In this document: piece after piece, positions 1-12,303 of the stretch
Numbering within the stretch: the stretch's first letter is position 1
Layout: the number at the start of each line of letters is the position of its first letter
DNA from: a virus
Lineage: Duplodnaviria > Heunggongvirae > Uroviricota > Caudoviricetes
DNA length: 12,377 bases
IMG/VR virus record: IMGVR_UViG_2778261066_000005
Strand: one strand, 5' to 3'
Position numbers and translations under genes: made by a program
The notes under the pieces: generated by a model
What the model was told of the DNA's origin: nothing
Database searches by the model: none
What the model saw: only the letters and a program-made list of their open reading frames with translations

Positions 1-1
1 G

Positions 2-30
2 TTGACAAAAATAGAAAAATGCGAAAATAT
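2..30 (+). promoter_or_regulatory. Candidate sigma70 promoter for the first ORF
   Basis: Perfect -35 hexamer TTGACA at 2-7; only weak -10 candidates about 17 bp downstream (AAATAT 25-30); GAAAA(T) direct repeats at 14-28. The window edge truncates upstream context. Confidence 0.3.
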
Positions 31-65
31 GTGGTTTACGAATTCTAAAAAAAGCGAAACTTGAA

Positions 66-716
66 ATGAATGAAAATCAGTTAGCTCCTTGTTGGGAATT
101 TCAACCTTATCTTGCTGAAAACTATGTTCGCCACTTGTTGGCGGAGATCGCTAACGTACTTGAGCAGCTGTACTATCATAAGCACGCATTAGACAGCAAC
201 TGGTCTGAAGGTGTAAGGGCTTATGATTGGGTCAGAAATCATCTTATTCAAAATGAAGATGCAATTCCTGGCCTTGAGATGATTTCCAAGGGGTTGGACT
301 ATGTAGTTGCTTTAAATAAAGTTCCGCTACAATTTACCAAAGATTGCATTAATAACCCCAAAAAGAAACATCGTCTGCGTCGAAATAAAGTAGAGTATGA
401 GCAGCTCTCATTGTTTGGTGATGTTGAGGCTGAGCAAGATATTACATGGCGAGTCATAGCTGAGCCTTTTTTATCCGAAGAGGGCGATGGTGAATTAGAG
501 TCCACACTGCCTCGTTGGGAGGTAGCTCTTGTTGGATTTAATACTTATGGTGCTCAGATTAGTATAGTTTCTCATCAATCTACAGCATCGATGCCGCTTA
601 TGCCTCTTGATTATAACACACTCCCTGACGAAGCGGAGATTAATAAGGTGCCTCTTCGTCGGCGTACGAAGGATAAAGATTTGGATGTGAGCAGTGATGG
701 AACATCAGGTGAATAA
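66..716 (+). CDS. Hypothetical protein, 216 aa, no family recognised; first gene of a two-gene module
   Basis: ATG-initiated 651-nt ORF; its 3' end overlaps the next gene by 20 nt (stop TAA 714-716 versus ATG 697), implying translational coupling. No strong Shine-Dalgarno and no motif recognised. Confidence 0.55.
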   Translation: MNENQLAPCWEFQPYLAENYVRHLLAEIANVLEQLYYHKHALDSNWSEGVRAYDWVRNHLIQNEDAIPGLEMISKGLDYVVALNKVPLQFTKDCINNPKKKHRLRRNKVEYEQLSLFGDVEAEQDITWRVIAEPFLSEEGDGELESTLPRWEVALVGFNTYGAQISIVSHQSTASMPLMPLDYNTLPDEAEINKVPLRRRTKDKDLDVSSDGTSGE

Positions 717-1800
717 CTTCACTGAGTATCGGGGTGATAAGCTCAAACTAGCGAGAATGGCTGTTGGGCTTTCTTGTGAAGAGTTAGCCGAAAAAATTGG
801 CAAGACAAAGCAATTCGTTAGCAAACTGGAGAAGGGGTGCAGGCCATCGGAGCAATGTCTTGAGTTAATATCTTCAGCGCTTATGATTAAGTCCAGTTTT
901 CTTTTTACTGAACGAAAATACGCTCTGGAAAGTGATGTCTGCCATTTTCGGAGTAAGAAGTCCAGGACTCAAACGCTGACTAATAGTGTATTGGCCAGGG
1001 CTGAGATTCTTAATATTATAATTTCTGCTGTTGAAGGTGAAATCGAATTTCCTGACGTTAACATACCGGAGCACCCAGGGGCTGAATTACTTACTCCGAA
1101 TGATATTGAGCGAGTGGCAGAAGATTGTCGCCGTGCCTGGAATTTAGGTCTTGGCCCTATATCATCAATGGTTAAATTGGCGGAGAGTTTAGGGGTAATC
1201 GTTGCGCATGTTACGGGAGTCGATGATCGTGTTGATGCTTTTACTGTTCACAATAACAGGCCTGTTATCATCAGGAACAATGTTAAAAAAAGCATATGTA
1301 GATTTCGCTCTGATTTAGGTCATGAATTAGGGCATTTAGTAATGCATGAGGGCATAACGACAGGTGATAAACTTACGGAATCACAAGCCGATCACTTTTC
1401 GAGCGCCTTATTAGTTCCCAGGTTATCTTTCATTAAAGAATTTCCACGAATACGAGGTAAGCAATTCGACTGGAATGCTCTGGTTGAATTTAAACTTAGA
1501 TGGAAAATCAGCCTTAAAATGTGTATTTATCGAGCCAGCGCATTAGGCTTATTGACCCAGGAACAGGCAAGAACTGGCTATATGCATCTTAATTCCAGAG
1601 GGTATACGAGAGTTGAACCTGGTGATGAACTTTTGCGCCCTGAAGAACCCGGCATGCTGGCCGAGGCGATTGAAATGCTGGATGATGCAACCTGGCTAAG
1701 AATTCTTATGAAAACTGGCTTGAGCCAAGATTTAATTCGTGAGTTGTTCTCCATCAACAGACCTATTACAAATCCAAGAAATATTTTCCAGATTGTTTGA
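697..1800 (+). CDS. Fused XRE-family HTH / ImmA-IrrE (M78, COG2856-type) zinc metallopeptidase, about 367 aa
   Basis: N-terminus (KLKLARMAVGLSCEELAEKIGKTKQFVSKLEKG) has the XRE helix-turn-helix pattern. HExxH zinc-binding motif HELGH is encoded at nt 1321-1335, in the context RSDLGHELGHLVMHEG typical of ImmA/IrrE peptidases. GTG at 694 is an alternative in-frame start. Confidence 0.85.
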   Translation: MEHQVNNFTEYRGDKLKLARMAVGLSCEELAEKIGKTKQFVSKLEKGCRPSEQCLELISSALMIKSSFLFTERKYALESDVCHFRSKKSRTQTLTNSVLARAEILNIIISAVEGEIEFPDVNIPEHPGAELLTPNDIERVAEDCRRAWNLGLGPISSMVKLAESLGVIVAHVTGVDDRVDAFTVHNNRPVIIRNNVKKSICRFRSDLGHELGHLVMHEGITTGDKLTESQADHFSSALLVPRLSFIKEFPRIRGKQFDWNALVEFKLRWKISLKMCIYRASALGLLTQEQARTGYMHLNSRGYTRVEPGDELLRPEEPGMLAEAIEMLDDATWLRILMKTGLSQDLIRELFSINRPITNPRNIFQIV

Positions 1801-1805
1801 GTATA

Positions 1806-1826
1806 CCCGCTTCGGCGGGTTTTTTG
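1806..1826 (+). terminator. Rho-independent terminator closing the two-gene module
   Basis: Stem CCCGC (1806-1810), loop TTCG, stem GCGGG (1815-1819), then TTTTTTGTTTTT, 6 nt after the stop at 1800. Confidence 0.7.
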
Positions 1827-1909
1827 TTTTTATTTTCAACGTGTTTGAAGTTTTGGACGGTGCCAGAATAGAATCAAAAATACTTAAGTAGCGCGCAGGG
1901 AGAAGAGGG

Positions 1910-5290: not shown

Positions 5291-6340
5291 ATGCTTAATA
5301 CTGTAAAAATATCCAGTTGTGAGTTAATCAACGCCGACTGCCTGGAATTTATCCGGTCGTTACCCGAAAATTCTGTTGACCTGATAGTCACGGACCCGCC
5401 GTACTTTAAAGTGAAGCCTGAGGGCTGGGATAACCAGTGGAAGGGCGACGATGATTACCTGAAGTGGCTGGACCAGTGTCTGGCGCAGTTCTGGCGGGTG
5501 CTGAAACCTGCCGGAAGTCTTTACCTGTTCTGTGGTCATCGCCTGGCATCTGATATCGAAATCATGATGCGTGAACGCTTCAGTGTGCTGAACCATATTA
5601 TCTGGGCGAAGCCGTCCGGACGCTGGAACGGATGCAACAAGGAAAGCCTGCGGGCGTATTTCCCCGCCACAGAGCGCATTCTGTTCGCGGAACATTATCA
5701 GGGGCCGTATCGTCCGAAAGATGCCGGGTATGCGGCGAAGGGCAGTGCACTGAAACAGCATGTGATGGCCCCGCTGATTTCTTACTTTCGTGATGCGCGC
5801 GCGGCCCTGGGGATAACGGCAAAACAGATTGCAGATGCCACAGGAAAGAAAAACATGGTGTCGCACTGGTTCAGTGCCAGTCAGTGGCAGCTACCGAACG
5901 AAAGCGATTATCTGAAATTACAGTCGCTGTTTGCCCGGGTGGCAGAAGAGAAACATCAGCGCGGTGAACTGGAAAAGCCCCACCACCAGCTGGTGGATAC
6001 GTATACGTCACTGAACCGGCAGTATGTGGAGCTGCAGAGTGAATATAAGCATCTGCGGCGGTATTTTGGTGTGACGGCGCAGGTGCCGTACACGGATGTG
6101 TGGACACATAAACCGGTGCAGTTCTATCCCGGGAAACATCCGTGCGAAAAACCGGCAGAAATGCTGCAGCAGATAATCAGCGCAAGCAGTCGTCCGGGTG
6201 ACCTGGTTGCAGATTTTTTTATGGGCTCAGGTTCAACGGTAAAAGCGGCACTGGCGCTCGGGCGTCGTGCGATTGGCGTTGAGCTGGAGACCGGACGTTT
6301 TGAGCAGACAGTCAGGGAAGTTCAGGATTTAATCGTTTGA
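5291..6340 (+). CDS. Orphan beta-class amino-DNA methyltransferase (N6-adenine or N4-cytosine), 349 aa
   Basis: Motif IV DPPY at nt 5393-5404 (SVDLIVTDPPYF) near the N-terminus and motif I FxGxG (DLVADFFMGSGST) near the C-terminus, the beta-class order. No adjacent restriction endonuclease gene. Confidence 0.85.
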   Translation: MLNTVKISSCELINADCLEFIRSLPENSVDLIVTDPPYFKVKPEGWDNQWKGDDDYLKWLDQCLAQFWRVLKPAGSLYLFCGHRLASDIEIMMRERFSVLNHIIWAKPSGRWNGCNKESLRAYFPATERILFAEHYQGPYRPKDAGYAAKGSALKQHVMAPLISYFRDARAALGITAKQIADATGKKNMVSHWFSASQWQLPNESDYLKLQSLFARVAEEKHQRGELEKPHHQLVDTYTSLNRQYVELQSEYKHLRRYFGVTAQVPYTDVWTHKPVQFYPGKHPCEKPAEMLQQIISASSRPGDLVADFFMGSGSTVKAALALGRRAIGVELETGRFEQTVREVQDLIV

Positions 6341-6389: not shown

Positions 6390-6465
6390 GGCCCTTTAGC
6401 TCAGTGGTGAGAGCGAGCGACTCATAATCGCCAGGTCGCTGGTTCAAATCCAGCAAGGGCCACCA
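6390..6465 (+). tRNA. ileZ: tRNA-Ile2 (anticodon CAU; ileX/ileZ-like), 76 nt with encoded CCA
   Basis: Hand-folded cloverleaf: acceptor GGCCCTT/AAGGGCC, D-arm GCTC-AGTGGTGA-GAGC, anticodon CAT at 6423-6425, T-loop TTCAAAT, discriminator A plus CCA. Closely resembles E. coli tRNA-Ile2 from memory; an elongator tRNA-Met cannot be excluded by eye. Confidence 0.8.
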
Positions 6466-6474
6466 TATCACATA

Positions 6475-6551
6475 CCACCATTAGCTCATCGGGATAGAGC
6501 GCCAGCCTTCGAAGCTGGTTGCGCGGGGTTCGAGTTCTCGATGGCGGTCCA
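6475..6551 (+). tRNA. tRNA-Arg (anticodon UCG), 77 nt, with non-canonical pairs
   Basis: Acceptor CCACCAT/ATGGCGG (one A-C mismatch), D-arm GCTC...GAGC, anticodon loop CTTCGAA (TCG at 6509-6511), T-loop TTCGAGT, CCA at 6549-6551. The T-stem contains two G-U pairs, so it may be partly degenerate. Confidence 0.6.
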
Positions 6552-7498: not shown

Positions 7499-7834
7499 TT
7501 ATGGACTTTGTTGTTTTAGCCCATAAGGACATATTTGCAGAGTGCAACGGTTATTAAAGCATTCATTCAATACGTTATCTGTATTTGTAGGGCATTCCTG
7601 GCTGTTTTTGATTAAATTCCAGAATGTTTTATTGAATGGTACTACGTTGTAAATGGTTACAGGTAGCACTTTGTTATTGAGCATGATGCCTGTGTGAGTC
7701 AGTGTAAATATACTTTCAGGAGGTAAGAAAGCATCCGATTGATACCAGATTATTAATTTTATTTTACTCCATATGACTGAAAAAGATATTCCGCATGATG
7801 GCTGGATAACTGTATCAATCACAATCCACTTCAT
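7499..7834 (-). CDS. Hypothetical protein, 111 aa, in an AT-rich island; the only candidate gene on the minus strand
   Basis: ORF with AAGGAAA about 6 nt upstream of its ATG on the minus strand. Base composition is much more AT-rich than the flanking phage genes. No motif recognised; it could be spurious. Confidence 0.3.
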
Positions 7835-8079: not shown

Positions 8080-9951
8080 ATGGTGGAAAGAACCATGGCA
8101 TTTAAACACTATGATGTTGTCAGGGCGGCGTCGCCGTCAGATCTTGCGGAAAAGCTGACACATAAACTGAAAGAGGGCTGGCAGCCGTTTGGTAGTCCGG
8201 TGGCCATAACCCCTTATACCCTGATGCAGGCGATTGCAGCAGAAGGTGATGTGGTCGTCAGTGGTGCAACTGAGCCGGAGTGGTACTACGTCATCGTACT
8301 GGCCGGGCAATCCAATGCCATGGCTTACGGTGAAGGGCTTCCGCTTCCGGATTCATACGATGCGCCCCATCCGCGCATTAAGCAACTGGCCCGGCGTAAC
8401 ACAGTGACTCCCGGTGGTGAAGTATGCGTATTTAACGACATCATTCCTGCTGACCATTGTCTGCATGATGTTCAGGATATGAGTACGATTAATCATCCCC
8501 GGGCTGACCTGAGCAAAGGGCAGTACGGCTGTGTCGGACAGGGCTTACATATTGCCAAAAAACTGCTTCCGTATATCCCTAATAACGCGGGGATCCTGCT
8601 GGTACCATGCTGTCGTGGTGGTTCGGCATTCACCCAGGGCACGGAGGGGACATTCAGCGAGTCCACGGGGGCCAGTCAGGATTCGGCTCGCTGGGGAGTG
8701 GGTAAGCCGTTATATCAGGATCTGCTTTTCCGCACGAAGGCAGCATTGCAGAAAAATCCGAAAAACGTTTTGCTGGCGATATGCTGGATGCAGGGGGAAT
8801 TCGATATGACGAATGCCAGTTACGCCCAGCAGCCAGCAGCATTTCTTGCAATGGTACAGCAGTTCCGTGCTGACCTTGCCGGGCTGGCGGCGCAGTGTCA
8901 CGGTGGAAGTCCGGCATCAGTCCCCTGGATTTGTGGCGACACGACATACGCGTGGAAACAAGAACACGGTACGCAATATGAAGTGGTATATGGTGCATAT
9001 AAAGGTAAAGAATCCCAGCAGATTTATTTTGTTCCCTTTATGACCGATGGTAGCGGAGTTAATACACCGACAAACAACCCGTCAGAAGATCCTGATATTG
9101 CCGGGTCTGGTTATTACGGTTCGGCATCCCGAACGAACAAAAACTGGGTATCATCAAATCGCCCGACGCATTTCAGCTCATGGGCGCGTCGTGGCATTAT
9201 TCCCGATCGTATGGCAACTGCTATTCTGAACGTAGCCGGTCGCACCTTAGCCTTCATTAGTGGTAAGGCACCGGAAATCAAACCCTCGCCCGGCGGCGAC
9301 ACTCCATCGGGGCCGTCTGATGGTGACACATCCGTTCGTACAGTCTCCCTGCTGCCGACAGCCGGAGAGGCTGCTGCGCAGGGCTGGACCATCACCGGCG
9401 GCAGTGTTGCGCTGGAAGATGGTGTGTTTAAGGTTACCAAGCAGAGCAATAAAACTTGGTCCCTGATGCATCCGGTGGATGACGCAGTCTCCCTGCTGAC
9501 ACGGGGTGGCAGACTGAGCTGTAAGTTTCGACTGTCAGGCGCACTGACCAACAACCAGTTCGGTCTGGGAATTTATCTGTATACCGATGTAGCGTTACCT
9601 GACGTCGTGGCGATGACCGGGACTGGTAACCCGTTCCTGATGTCGTTCTTCACCCAGACCACAGACGGCAAACTGAATCTGATGCATCACAGGAAAGCAG
9701 GAAACACAAAGTTGGGCGAGTTCGGGAATTACAGTAACGACTGGCAGACGCTGGAGCTGGTGTTCACCGCCGGCAGTGCCACGGTTACTCCGAAACTGAA
9801 TGGAGTGGCTGGCCCGGCATTCCAGGTCATAAAAGACAGTCTGACACTGGGGCTGAATGCGCTGACGCTGACGGATATTACCAAAAATGCAGCGTATGGC
9901 GTTGAGATAGAAAGTCTGGTGCTGGAGATAAATGCACCAGCATCATCATAA
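8080..9951 (+). CDS. nanS-p: NanS-p-like prophage sialate O-acetylesterase (DUF1737 N-terminus plus SASA/SGNH esterase domain), 623 aa
   Basis: VIVLAGQSNAMAYGEG carries the GQSN motif of the sialate O-acetylesterase family. The size and the position between the tRNA cluster and the lysis cassette match the nanS-p genes of Stx phages (recalled). Alternative start ATG 8095 has a better-spaced GGTGGAAAG upstream. Confidence 0.8.
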   Translation: MVERTMAFKHYDVVRAASPSDLAEKLTHKLKEGWQPFGSPVAITPYTLMQAIAAEGDVVVSGATEPEWYYVIVLAGQSNAMAYGEGLPLPDSYDAPHPRIKQLARRNTVTPGGEVCVFNDIIPADHCLHDVQDMSTINHPRADLSKGQYGCVGQGLHIAKKLLPYIPNNAGILLVPCCRGGSAFTQGTEGTFSESTGASQDSARWGVGKPLYQDLLFRTKAALQKNPKNVLLAICWMQGEFDMTNASYAQQPAAFLAMVQQFRADLAGLAAQCHGGSPASVPWICGDTTYAWKQEHGTQYEVVYGAYKGKESQQIYFVPFMTDGSGVNTPTNNPSEDPDIAGSGYYGSASRTNKNWVSSNRPTHFSSWARRGIIPDRMATAILNVAGRTLAFISGKAPEIKPSPGGDTPSGPSDGDTSVRTVSLLPTAGEAAAQGWTITGGSVALEDGVFKVTKQSNKTWSLMHPVDDAVSLLTRGGRLSCKFRLSGALTNNQFGLGIYLYTDVALPDVVAMTGTGNPFLMSFFTQTTDGKLNLMHHRKAGNTKLGEFGNYSNDWQTLELVFTAGSATVTPKLNGVAGPAFQVIKDSLTLGLNALTLTDITKNAAYGVEIESLVLEINAPASS

Positions 9952-12096: not shown

Positions 12097-12303
12097 ATGA
12101 AAGATCAAGATGTTAGGTTCGCGGTGCATCATAAGCTTTTGAAAGAATCGCATTTAGATCCAGACTGCCTTGTGGTCGATGAATTTTCCATATCCCTTGG
12201 CGCCAGTAGAGCAGACATTGCTGTAATAAATGGTGTTATACACGGGTACGAGCTCAAAAGTGAATATGACTCTTTGGAGCGTTTGCCTCTTCAAATCAAG
12301 TGA
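12097..12303 (+). CDS. Hypothetical protein with PD-(D/E)xK-like motif, 68 aa as read; probably an N-terminal fragment or frameshifted
   Basis: Very strong Shine-Dalgarno GGAGGGAGTAAGGAGAAG directly upstream of ATG 12097. D-x-E and E-x-K spacing (VVDEF ... GYELKSE) resembles a restriction-endonuclease-like fold. The stop is TGA 12301-12303, but the -1 frame stays open to the window end. Confidence 0.5.
   Translation: MKDQDVRFAVHHKLLKESHLDPDCLVVDEFSISLGASRADIAVINGVIHGYELKSEYDSLERLPLQIK

What the first reader, a model, noticed from the sequence alone, without database searches (positions are those of the whole stretch)
1..1830. Self-contained two-gene accessory module: unknown 216-aa protein coupled to an XRE-HTH/ImmA-IrrE metallopeptidase fusion
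Seen in sequence: a TTGACA -35 at the window start, a 216-aa ORF with no recognisable family, a 20-nt overlap into a 367-aa protein combining an XRE-type HTH with an HExxH (HELGH) M78-type peptidase core, and a strong terminator 6 nt after the stop. Established knowledge: HTH plus ImmA/IrrE-type peptidase pairs act as DNA-damage-triggered derepression switches (ImmR/ImmA of ICEBs1, DdrO/IrrE of Deinococcus, CapH/CapP of CBASS operons), and COG2856-Xre fusions have been predicted as antitoxin-like partners of diverse toxins. The module sits upstream of ydfU/rusA/Q, the slot where Qin carries hokD and relBE. Inference: gene 1 is a candidate effector or toxin (abortive infection, superinfection exclusion or addiction) held in check by the fused sensor-regulator. 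It is the strongest candidate here for an undescribed system.
Basis: partly seen in the sequence, partly recalled or inferred. Interest (0 to 1): 0.8.

Follow-up and report, generated by a model that had tools for sequence, protein, structure and literature searches.

The report
RosmerTA toxin–antitoxin module in prophage
The two genes are real and form a mobile cassette, but they belong to an already described toxin–antitoxin and anti-phage family (RosmerTA, vmi480/vmi470 branch), so this is a known kind of system whose toxin mechanism is still unknown.

Summary
There is a 216-aa ORF (66-716), a 367-aa XRE-HTH/M78-peptidase ORF (697-1800) overlapping it by 20 nt, a TTGACA -35 at 2-7 and a terminator at 1805-1830.

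The claim that the system is undescribed does not hold. PADLOC models name the genes RmrT (E 4.6e-25) and RmrA (E 6e-105), which is RosmerTA (Millman 2022). Gene 1 is a distant homolog of Vmi480, a Vibrio mimicus toxin shown to kill E. coli. Gene 2 is 47% identical to the partner of a 99%-identical Vmi480 copy, which matches the published antitoxin Vmi470.

The pair is strictly co-conserved (64/64 loci). It travels with its own promoter through different prophage slots and a Tn7-like element. In E. coli it is an 1835-bp insertion after hokD, flanked by a duplicated 20-bp terminator. It is present in 237 of 5426 genomes, and the empty site is present in 2774. Only the toxin gene is ever disrupted.

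The toxin's predicted fold matches nothing solved. I noticed a conserved QLSLF at residues 113-117, an exact beta-clamp-binding consensus, in a flexible loop. Another Rosmer toxin, RipA, targets the clamp. This gives a testable but unproven mechanism.

Verdict: already known kind, low-to-moderate interest.

The parts
1..30 (+). Module promoter: -35 TTGACA (2-7), 17-nt spacer, weak -10 AAATAT (25-30)
   Evidence: Read from the sequence. Conservation among E. coli, Enterobacter, Serratia and Xenorhabdus begins exactly at TGGTTGACA, and the sequence upstream is unrelated. TTGAC lies 64 nt before the ATG in 57/59 loci. The consensus scan did not report it because the -10 matches only 3/6.
1..59 (+). 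Two imperfect direct repeats (about 1-26 and 32-59, TGGTTGACAAAAATAGAAAAATGCGAAA / TGGTTTACGAATTCTAAAAAAAGCGAAA, 33-nt period). They are candidate operator sites for the RmrA HTH (inferred).
   Evidence: the repeat finder on L001 11999-12026 and 12032-12059, 71% identity. GGTT.AC and GCGAAA are invariant in the four-genus alignment. Function was not tested.
66..716 (+). rmrT: 216-aa toxin of the Vmi480 family
   Evidence: PADLOC RmrT PDLC03929, E 4.6e-25, profile 5-195/198. PHROG 5786, E 8e-85. BLASTP to Vmi480 (P0132 = VMD_06480), E 1e-15, 26% identity over 176 aa. hhalign probability 97.8%. AF2 model pLDDT 82, pTM 0.72.
402..416 (+). QLSLF (aa 113-117 of RmrT): exact match to the bacterial beta-clamp-binding motif consensus, in a predicted flexible loop
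   Evidence: Read from the sequence. Family columns: Q 28/33, position 4 hydrophobic 33/33 (L 27), position 5 F 18 and L 5. Q[LM][ST]LFG is present in all 59 full-length Enterobacterales copies while the flanking residues vary. The region is coil, and the 111-120 block has pLDDT 66. The motif definition comes from PMC12309361. Binding was not tested.
697..1800 (+). rmrA: 367-aa antitoxin/regulator, with an N-terminal XRE HTH, an M78 (ImmA/IrrE-type) Zn-peptidase and a C-terminal region
   Evidence: PADLOC RmrA PDLC03943, E 6.2e-105. PHROG 2439, E 7.6e-123. 29% identity, E 2e-35 to the verified OLC-716 RmrA. 47% identity, E 3e-124 to the Vmi470-type protein of L009.
733..909 (+). XRE-type helix-turn-helix domain (aa 13-71 of RmrA)
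   Evidence: Pfam HTH_3 aa 16-62 and HTH_31. PDB sequence hits to SinR, the 434 repressor and CapH (7t5u).
1222..1539 (+). Peptidase_M78 domain (aa 176-281). HELGH is at nt 1321-1335. The putative third ligand E228 is at nt 1378-1380.
   Evidence: Pfam PF06114, E 6.5e-11. H209, E210, H213 and E228 are invariant in 7 RmrA sequences, including the verified one.
1805..1830 (+). Intrinsic terminator. Its first 20 nt (1805-1824, ACCCGCTTCGGCGGGTTTTT) repeat the hokD terminator that lies 31 nt upstream of window position 1.
   Evidence: Terminator scan. An exact 20-nt direct repeat is found at L001 11970-11989 and window 1805-1824. The empty site with a single copy is contiguous in 2774 genomes.

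Best explanation
Positions 1-1830 are a RosmerTA-type toxin-antitoxin and anti-phage cassette of the vmi480/vmi470 branch, carried as a moron in a lambdoid (Qin-like) prophage.

Shown here:
- Both genes match the Rosmer models and the Vibrio TA pair.
- The pair is inseparable across contexts and moves with its own promoter.
- In E. coli it is an 1835-bp insertion after hokD, bracketed by a duplicated terminator.

Taken from experiments on homologs:
- Gene 1 (RmrT) is a growth-arresting or lethal toxin.
- Gene 2 (RmrA) neutralises it and cannot be lost alone.
- ClpX/ClpP help keep Rosmer toxins in check.

Inferred:
- RmrA also represses the operon through its HTH, at the two direct repeats that overlap the promoter.
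- Phage infection or another insult disables RmrA or the Clp-assisted control. The intact HExxH...E site suggests proteolysis is part of that switch.
- Freed RmrT then stops the cell and aborts the infection. This benefits the prophage by excluding competitors and by addiction.

My most likely guess for the toxic step is that RmrT occupies the hydrophobic cleft of the beta sliding clamp (DnaN) through its conserved QLSLF loop and blocks replication, as reported for the Rosmer toxin RipA. I hold this step at about 0.3-0.35 on its own.
For: Family assignment: PADLOC RmrT E 4.6e-25 and RmrA E 6.2e-105. RmrA is 29% identical, E 2e-35, to the experimentally verified E. coli OLC-716 RmrA (sequence from Millman 2022 Table S2).

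Vmi480 link: P0132 carries the name 671076.VMD_06480. BLASTP to it gives E 1e-15 and hhalign 97.8%. A 99%-identical copy, P0109, sits 5 bp upstream of a 362-aa HTH+M78 protein, exactly as published. That protein is 47% identical to gene 2. Luo 2015 (PMC4671572) showed that Vmi480 alone is lethal in E. coli, that Vmi470 rescues it, and that vmi470 cannot be deleted alone.

Co-conservation: 64/64 loci. Contexts include a methyltransferase neighbour, a Tn7-like element, the Serratia Q-holin slot and the Enterobacter nin region.

Mobility: conservation starts at the -35 and ends at the stop codon. There is a 20-nt flanking repeat. The empty site occurs in 2774 genomes against the module in 237. 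GC is 0.38-0.45 against 0.50-0.57 downstream.

Polarity: gene 2 is complete in all 237 genomes. Gene 1 is broken by IS5 in one and by a deletion in another, with rmrA intact in both. The antitoxin is always more conserved than the toxin.

Catalytic site: the HExxH+E site is invariant.

Clp link and clamp precedent: Rousset 2020, the RipAB paper and the Pectobacteriaceae Tn-seq study.

Clamp motif.
Against: - No experiment exists for this E. coli module. None of the searched papers mentions WP_001004956 or WP_000401168.
- Anti-phage activity has been shown only for Rosmer systems with unrelated toxins. [quoted passage not shown]
- Two S. thermophilus Rosmer homologs were largely ineffective against phages.
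- In the related PD-lambda-2 system the Xre-peptidase itself was the toxic part.
- The clamp idea rests on a short motif that could instead be structural or an RmrA contact.
- Several conserved charged residues (D43, D93, K100, E110, R129, E133) would also fit an enzyme.
- The promoter -10 is weak, and the operator assignment is a guess.
Confidence: 0.85

Rival explanations
1. The module is only an addiction or stabilisation element for the prophage (post-segregational killing) and has no role in phage defence.
For: It sits directly beside another addiction-type toxin gene, hokD. The vmi480/vmi470 pair was described purely as a TA system on a mobilisable island. Some Rosmer homologs gave little or no phage protection. 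rmrA is essential wherever the system is present, which is sufficient for addiction.
Against: Rosmer systems from E. coli OLC-716 and Gordonia phage Kita do protect against phages. The cassette occupies prophage moron slots typical of superinfection-exclusion genes, and one copy rides in a Tn7-like element. The two roles are not mutually exclusive.
Confidence: 0.25
2. RmrT is an enzyme, for example a divergent nuclease-like fold, that damages nucleic acids or another substrate. It is not a clamp-binding poison.
Confidence: 0.3
3. The polarity is reversed. The Xre-peptidase (gene 2) is the harmful component and gene 1 restrains it, as reported for PD-lambda-2.
For: Vassallo 2022 found that the Xre-peptidase PD-lambda-2B alone is toxic and is rescued by the upstream HigB-like protein.
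Against: In the closest tested relative, the first gene (Vmi480) is lethal and the peptidase gene is harmless and protective. In E. coli genomes only gene 1 is found disrupted and gene 2 is always complete. Delta-rmrA could not be transformed in Millman 2022. rmrA is essential in three Pectobacteriaceae.
Confidence: 0.04
4. Gene 2 is a fused ImmR/ImmA-like or CapH/CapP-like DNA-damage switch that regulates neighbouring prophage genes, and gene 1 is unrelated cargo.
For: The HTH plus M78 peptidase chemistry is the same as in ImmR/ImmA, DdrO/IrrE and CapH/CapP. PADLOC gives weaker hits to capP (E 1.6e-14) and capH (E 1.5e-4).
Against: The prophage has its own cI/Cro-like immunity region. Gene 2 is found next to a gene 1 relative in every context examined, including non-phage ones. 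The genes overlap by 20 nt and share one promoter and one terminator. The best matches by far are the RmrA models, at E 6e-105 against 1.6e-14 for capP.
Confidence: 0.04

Closest known systems
vmi480/vmi470 toxin-antitoxin pair of Vibrio mimicus VM573 island MGIVmi1 (Luo et al. 2015, PMC4671572)
   Same: The toxin family is the same (BLASTP E 1e-15, hhalign 97.8%). The antitoxin family is the same (47% identity over the full length). The order is toxin first, the sizes are similar (198/362 against 216/367 aa), the genes are tightly coupled, and the element is mobile.
   Different: The toxins share only 26% identity. The Vibrio genes have a 5-bp gap instead of a 20-nt overlap. The carrier is a genomic island rather than a lambdoid prophage. 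The E. coli version has not been tested.
RosmerTA, verified system of E. coli OLC-716 (Millman et al. 2022)
   Same: The RmrA architecture is HTH + Zn-peptidase, with 29% identity and E 2e-35. It is a two-gene operon with the toxin first. PADLOC files both window genes under Rosmer.
   Different: The verified RmrT (239 aa) shows no detectable sequence similarity to gene 1. Rosmer is defined by the antitoxin, and its toxins are diverse.
E. coli E101 prophage pair E101_02645/E101_02644 (Rousset et al., bioRxiv 10.1101/2020.05.25.114553)
   Same: It is a prophage-borne pair in E. coli, reported as 33%/42% identical to Vmi480/Vmi470, so it is presumably in the same toxin family. It makes clpP essential.
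   Different: The proteins are different (WP_001179380/WP_000481765 against WP_001004956/WP_000401168). I could not obtain their sequences to compare them directly.
RipAB (Spr1630/Spr1629) of Streptococcus pneumoniae (PMC12795458)
   Same: It is a Rosmer-type pair. NCBIfam's spr1629 antitoxin model hits gene 2 at E 1.5e-45, below its cut-off. The toxin acts on the hydrophobic pocket of DnaN and depends on ClpX. This parallels the QLSLF motif seen here.
   Different: It is from a Gram-positive host. Homology of the toxins was not tested because no sequence was available. Its described role is competence induction, not phage defence.
SocAB of Caulobacter crescentus (as described in PMC12795458; the ClpXP-adaptor role of SocA is from my own knowledge)
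   Same: The toxin binds the beta-clamp cleft. Toxin control depends on ClpXP rather than on antitoxin degradation.
   Different: There is no HTH/M78 antitoxin, no sequence relationship, and the system is chromosomal.
ImmR/ImmA (ICEBs1), DdrO/IrrE (Deinococcus), CapH/CapP (CBASS)
   Same: The chemistry is the same: an XRE HTH repressor plus an M78-type metallopeptidase with HExxH.
   Different: In those systems the two functions are separate proteins, and the protease cleaves the repressor after DNA damage to derepress other genes. Here they are fused in one protein that partners a toxin, and no CBASS or ICE genes lie adjacent.
PD-lambda-2 (Vassallo et al. 2022, PMC9519451)
   Same: It is an E. 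coli defence system that contains an Xre-peptidase fusion downstream of a toxin-like gene.
   Different: It has three genes, the first being HigB-like. The peptidase fusion itself was the toxic part.

Membership tests
RosmerTA | RmrA: a protein with an M78/ImmA-type Zn-peptidase domain, usually with an N-terminal XRE HTH | tested here: met
   PADLOC RmrA PDLC03943, E 6.2e-105, covering 11-350, plus 13 further RmrA models. Pfam Peptidase_M78 and HTH_3 are above their cut-offs. 29% identity, E 2e-35 to the verified RmrA.
RosmerTA | Intact metallopeptidase site (HExxH plus a downstream Glu) | tested here: met
   H209, E210, H213 and E228 are invariant in the alignment of 7 RmrA proteins, including the verified one.
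RosmerTA | An adjacent, co-oriented RmrT gene recognised by one of the family's toxin models | tested here: met
   PADLOC RmrT PDLC03929, E 4.6e-25, profile 5-195 of 198. There is a 20-nt overlap with rmrA. 64/64 loci keep the pair.
RosmerTA | RmrT is toxic and RmrA neutralises it | not testable with these tools
   This was shown for the homolog Vmi480/Vmi470. Indirect support here is that only gene 1 is found disrupted among 237 E. coli genomes.
RosmerTA | Protects the host against phage | not testable with these tools
   This was shown only for systems with unrelated toxins. No test of the Vmi480-type branch was found in the literature searched.
vmi480/vmi470 TA family | Toxin homologous to Vmi480 (VMD_06480) | tested here: met
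   BLASTP E 1e-15, 26% identity over 176 aa. hhalign probability 97.8%, E 1.3e-12. P0132 was identified as VMD_06480 by its source name.
vmi480/vmi470 TA family | Antitoxin homologous to Vmi470 (362 aa, HTH + Zn-peptidase), encoded immediately downstream | tested here: met
   Gene 2 is 47% identical, E 3e-124, to the 362-aa protein that lies 5 bp downstream of a 99%-identical Vmi480 copy. Vmi470 itself was not retrieved. The match in length and spacing to the paper makes the identification likely.
ImmR/ImmA-type derepression switch | A separate repressor and protease, with the protease cleaving the repressor to switch on element genes | tested here: not met
   The HTH and the peptidase are fused in one 367-aa protein. 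The partner is a toxin-family gene, not an integrase or excision operon. Cleavage itself was not testable.
CapH/CapP (CBASS regulator) | Located next to a CBASS operon that it regulates | tested here: not met
   No CD-NTase or effector genes lie in the window or in L001. The neighbours are hokD and ydfU/rusA/Q. The capP and capH hits are far weaker than the RmrA hits.
PD-(D/E)xK nucleases (for RmrT) | A conserved D on strand 2 and (D/E)xK on strand 3 of the core fold | tested here: not met
Beta-clamp-binding proteins (for RmrT) | An accessible QL[S/D]LF or QxxLF motif | tested here: met
   An exact QLSLF lies at aa 113-117, in coil with lower pLDDT. It is conserved as Q-x-x-hydrophobic-[FL] across the family. 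The presence of the motif is not proof of membership.
Beta-clamp-binding proteins (for RmrT) | Physical binding to the DnaN cleft | not testable with these tools
   No complex prediction or coordinates were available, so this needs an experiment.

The most novel reading that the evidence does not exclude
The Vmi480-type RmrT toxins, whose predicted fold has no significant match among solved structures, are beta-sliding-clamp poisons. Their conserved, exposed QLSLF loop plugs the polymerase-binding cleft of DnaN. RmrA together with ClpXP keeps the toxin away from the clamp until infection. If the QL-x-hydrophobic-x-hydrophobic element in the unrelated-looking OLC-716 RmrT is the same device, clamp targeting would be a common theme of Rosmer toxins. 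That would tie RipA, SocB and this family together, and it would suggest that these systems stop phage by freezing replication forks.
Probability: 0.3. Interest if true: 0.55.

Novelty: already known. Interest (0 to 1): 0.25.

Why it matters
As a system it adds little, because standard defence annotation (PADLOC or DefenseFinder models) already labels it RosmerTA and a relative was validated as a toxin-antitoxin pair in 2015.

Three things have some value:
- RefSeq still annotates the pair as "hypothetical protein" and "helix-turn-helix domain-containing protein" in the listed genomes, out of 237 complete E. coli genomes that carry it. These include the therapeutic strain ABU 83972 and EAEC 042. 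A correct label is therefore useful.
- The clean insertion footprint, with a duplicated terminator and abundant empty sites, is a tidy example of how defence morons enter prophages.
- The mechanism of Rosmer toxins and the reason they make ClpX/ClpP essential are open questions. The conserved clamp-binding motif gives a cheap, direct experiment.

Tried and rejected
- Pfam and NCBIfam give nothing for gene 1. The phage GenBank collection also gives nothing by tblastn.
- Gene 1 shows no similarity to the verified OLC-716 RmrT by direct BLASTP or by profile comparison. Rosmer membership therefore rests on a different RmrT model and on RmrA.
- I rejected the nuclease reading suggested by the weak NaeI, SwaI and NucC hits as a membership claim, because the catalytic motif is absent.
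- A genome-contig scan with the wide alignment failed because no block was conserved enough. With the narrow alignment it returned only one locus.
- Millman's Table S11 is truncated in the held copy, so I could not check whether this exact E. coli locus is listed there.
- I could not retrieve the E101_02645 or RipA sequences, so their homology to gene 1 is untested.
- The consensus promoter scan did not detect the module promoter. Its reality rests on cross-genus conservation instead.
Full report
**Observation**

- Gene 1 runs from ATG 66 to the stop at 716 (216 aa). Gene 2 runs from ATG 697 to 1800 (367 aa). They overlap by 20 nt. RefSeq annotates the same two ORFs in E. coli ABU 83972 as WP_001004956.1 "hypothetical protein" and WP_000401168.1 "helix-turn-helix domain-containing protein".
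- Gene 2 carries Pfam HTH_3 (aa 16-62) and Peptidase_M78 (aa 176-281), with HELGH at aa 209-213.
- TTGACA lies at 2-7. The only -10 candidate at 17-nt spacing is AAATAT (25-30), too weak for the consensus scan.
- A GC-rich hairpin plus T-run follows the stop at 1805-1830.
- Downstream lie DUF968/ydfU, RusA and the Q antiterminator.

**What it is**

Gene 1 has no Pfam or NCBIfam family, but it is not an orphan.
- It matches PHROG 5786 (E 8e-85) and the PADLOC model RmrT PDLC03929 over the model's whole length (E 4.6e-25).
- Gene 2 matches fourteen RmrA models, the best at E 6.2e-105.
- RmrT/RmrA is RosmerTA, one of the defence systems named by Millman et al. 2022. [quoted passage not shown]
- Gene 2 is 29% identical (E 2e-35) to the verified E. 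coli OLC-716 RmrA. Gene 1 has no detectable similarity to the verified RmrT. This fits the literature, in which one protease-type antitoxin pairs with many unrelated toxins (Ernits et al. 2023).

**A closer, experimentally tested relative**

- An exhaustive phmmer search of 1.84 billion cluster representatives found only 37 relatives of gene 1. All are about 200 aa and unannotated. The named members of the clusters I looked up are nearly all gammaproteobacterial (Enterobacterales, Aeromonas, Vibrio, Photobacterium, Pseudomonas), with one Pseudovibrio exception.
- One branch contains P0132, whose source names include 671076.VMD_06480 and Vibrio mimicus. This is Vmi480.
- Gene 1 aligns to it with E 1e-15 (26% identity over 176 residues) and hhalign probability 97.8%.
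- A 99%-identical copy lies 5 bp upstream of a 362-aa HTH+M78 protein, exactly the spacing and size published for vmi470. That protein is 47% identical to gene 2 over its full length (E 3e-124).
- Luo et al. 2015 showed that Vmi480 alone kills E. coli, that co-expressed Vmi470 rescues it, and that vmi470 cannot be deleted on its own. Millman et al. cite that work as a precedent for Rosmer.
- Rousset et al. described a further E. coli prophage pair, 33%/42% identical to Vmi480/Vmi470, that makes clpP essential.

**The module as a unit**

- Every one of 64 loci that encode a gene 1 relative encodes a gene 2 relative immediately downstream. The antitoxin is always the more conserved of the two: 92 against 84%, 73 against 63%, 65 against 52%, and 47 against 26%.
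- The contexts differ. They include directly after hokD in Qin-like E. coli prophages, between Q and the holin in Serratia, after DUF977 in Enterobacter, beside a DNA methyltransferase, and inside a Tn7-like element.
- In the one locus beside the methyltransferase (L003), the HTH and the peptidase are called as two separate genes.
- Conservation across four genera begins exactly at TGGTTGACA and is lost right after the stop codon. TTGAC lies 64 nt before the ATG in 57 of 59 loci, whereas hokD is upstream in only 35.
- In E. coli the cassette is an 1835-bp insertion flanked by an exact 20-nt direct repeat of the hokD terminator. The uninterrupted hokD-terminator-downstream junction is present in 2774 of 5426 complete genomes, and the module in 237.
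- Its GC content (0.38-0.45) is below that of the flanking prophage genes.

So "self-contained accessory module" is right.

**Which gene is the toxin**

Apart from the Vibrio experiments, E. coli genomes show asymmetric decay.
- Each gene is found in 237 genomes.
- Gene 2 is at least 80% covered in all 237.
- Gene 1 is split by an IS5 element in FDAARGOS_1249 and carries an internal deletion in PS1Thumoskin9. In both strains the rmrA product is unchanged.

This is the pattern expected if gene 1 is the harmful partner. It argues against the reversed polarity reported for PD-lambda-2.

**How it probably works**

Shown or taken from homologs:
- The toxin is encoded first and the antitoxin second, with translational coupling.
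- The antitoxin is essential.
- ClpX or ClpP is required to tolerate Rosmer toxins in S. pneumoniae, E. coli E101 and three Pectobacteriaceae.
- The metallopeptidase site (H209, E210, H213, E228) is invariant.

Inferred:
- The HTH represses the operon. Two conserved 28-nt direct repeats with a 33-nt period overlap the promoter and are the obvious candidate operators.
- Infection perturbs RmrA or the Clp-assisted control, and the toxin then arrests the cell.
- The trigger is unknown. The DNA-damage analogy with ImmA, IrrE and CapP is untested.

**The toxin**

- An AlphaFold2 model built on a 33-sequence alignment is confident (pLDDT 82, pTM 0.72). It has two long helices followed by a six-stranded sheet and a disordered C-terminal tail.
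- Residues 113-117 read QLSLF. This is the exact consensus of the bacterial beta-clamp-binding motif, QL[S/D]LF or QxxLF. As a peptide it binds E. coli DnaN with submicromolar affinity (PMC12309361).
- The motif lies in a coil segment of lower confidence, directly after the near-invariant E110. It is followed by a variable acidic stretch.
- Across the divergent family, Q is kept in 28/33 sequences, position 4 is always hydrophobic (L in 27) and position 5 is F or L in 23. In 59 Enterobacterales copies Q[LM][ST]LFG is invariant while its neighbours vary.
- With typical amino-acid frequencies, an exact QLSLF is expected about 2e-4 times in a protein of this size (my estimate).
- RipA, a Rosmer toxin of S. 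pneumoniae, was shown genetically and by interaction assays to act on the hydrophobic pocket of DnaN. SocB of Caulobacter does the same.
- I therefore propose clamp occupation as the most likely toxic step, at roughly 0.3-0.35. An enzymatic activity, suggested by conserved D43, D93, K100, E110, R129 and E133, is the main rival.
- The verified OLC-716 RmrT and three relatives keep QL-x-[LF]-x-[LF] (QLKLDL or QLNFGF) inside an otherwise variable segment. Four sequences are too few to count as more than a hint.

**Comparison and novelty**

- The module meets every sequence-level criterion for RosmerTA and for the vmi480/vmi470 family. The functional criteria (toxicity, neutralisation, phage protection) cannot be tested here.
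- It is not an ImmR/ImmA or CapH/CapP system. The two activities are fused, the partner is a toxin, and no CBASS or ICE genes are nearby.
- It is therefore an already known kind of system. Existing defence HMMs recognise it, and it has a validated relative, although this E. coli version has not itself been studied. No paper in the library mentions its accessions.

**Scores**

Interest is 0.25. The most novel reading that remains open is the clamp-poison mechanism, at probability about 0.3 and interest about 0.55 if true.

Noticed in passing
window 1805-1824, and 31 nt upstream of window position 1 (L001 11970-11989): An exact 20-nt direct repeat (ACCCGCTTCGGCGGGTTTTT, the hokD terminator) brackets the cassette. 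The single-copy empty site is contiguous in 2774 E. coli genomes. This looks like the footprint of insertion or recombination at a terminator hairpin.
   Followed up: yes
window 7499-7834 (- strand): A 111-aa ORF matches the anti-adapter protein IraM (NCBIfam PRK09919, E 4.7e-48, above the cut-off). IraM is an RssB antagonist that stabilises RpoS. The ORF sits in the slot between the prophage tRNA genes and the esterase gene.
   Followed up: partly
window 12097-12303 (+): A 68-aa ORF matches the first 68 positions of the 184-position sce7726-family model (NCBIfam NF033832, E 2.7e-22). It appears truncated by a stop codon and lies just after the lysis cassette.
   Followed up: partly
window 6390-6551 (+): There are two prophage tRNA genes. 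One is tRNA with anticodon CAT, called Met by ARAGORN. The corresponding gene in ABU 83972 is annotated tRNA-Ile, which is consistent with a lysidine-modified Ile2. The other is tRNA-Arg (TCG). They lie downstream of a DNA N6/N4 methyltransferase gene (5291-6340).
   Followed up: no
window 8080-9951 (+): A 623-aa protein with DUF1737, SASA (sialate O-acetylesterase) and DUF6645 domains, of the NanS-p type common in lambdoid and Stx prophages. It is followed by a P21-type holin, DUF1327, lysozyme and Rz.
   Followed up: no
L065-L067 and the OLC-716 RmrT sequence (Millman 2022 Table S2), about aa 143-148: The experimentally verified Rosmer toxin, which has no sequence similarity to gene 1, also carries a clamp-motif-like hexapeptide. 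It reads QLKLDL, or QLNFGF in a 65%-identical relative. Q and L are invariant inside an otherwise variable segment. Only four sequences were available.
   Followed up: partly
L003 2910-4036: In one metagenomic relative the antitoxin is called as two genes, an HTH protein of 152 aa and an M78 peptidase of 223 aa. This is either a natural split resembling ImmR/ImmA or a frameshift.
   Followed up: no
L010 (E. coli FDAARGOS_1249) and L011 (E. coli PS1Thumoskin9): There are two independent inactivations of the toxin gene, one by IS5 insertion and one by internal deletion. The antitoxin gene is unchanged in both. No genome was seen with the opposite pattern.
   Followed up: yes
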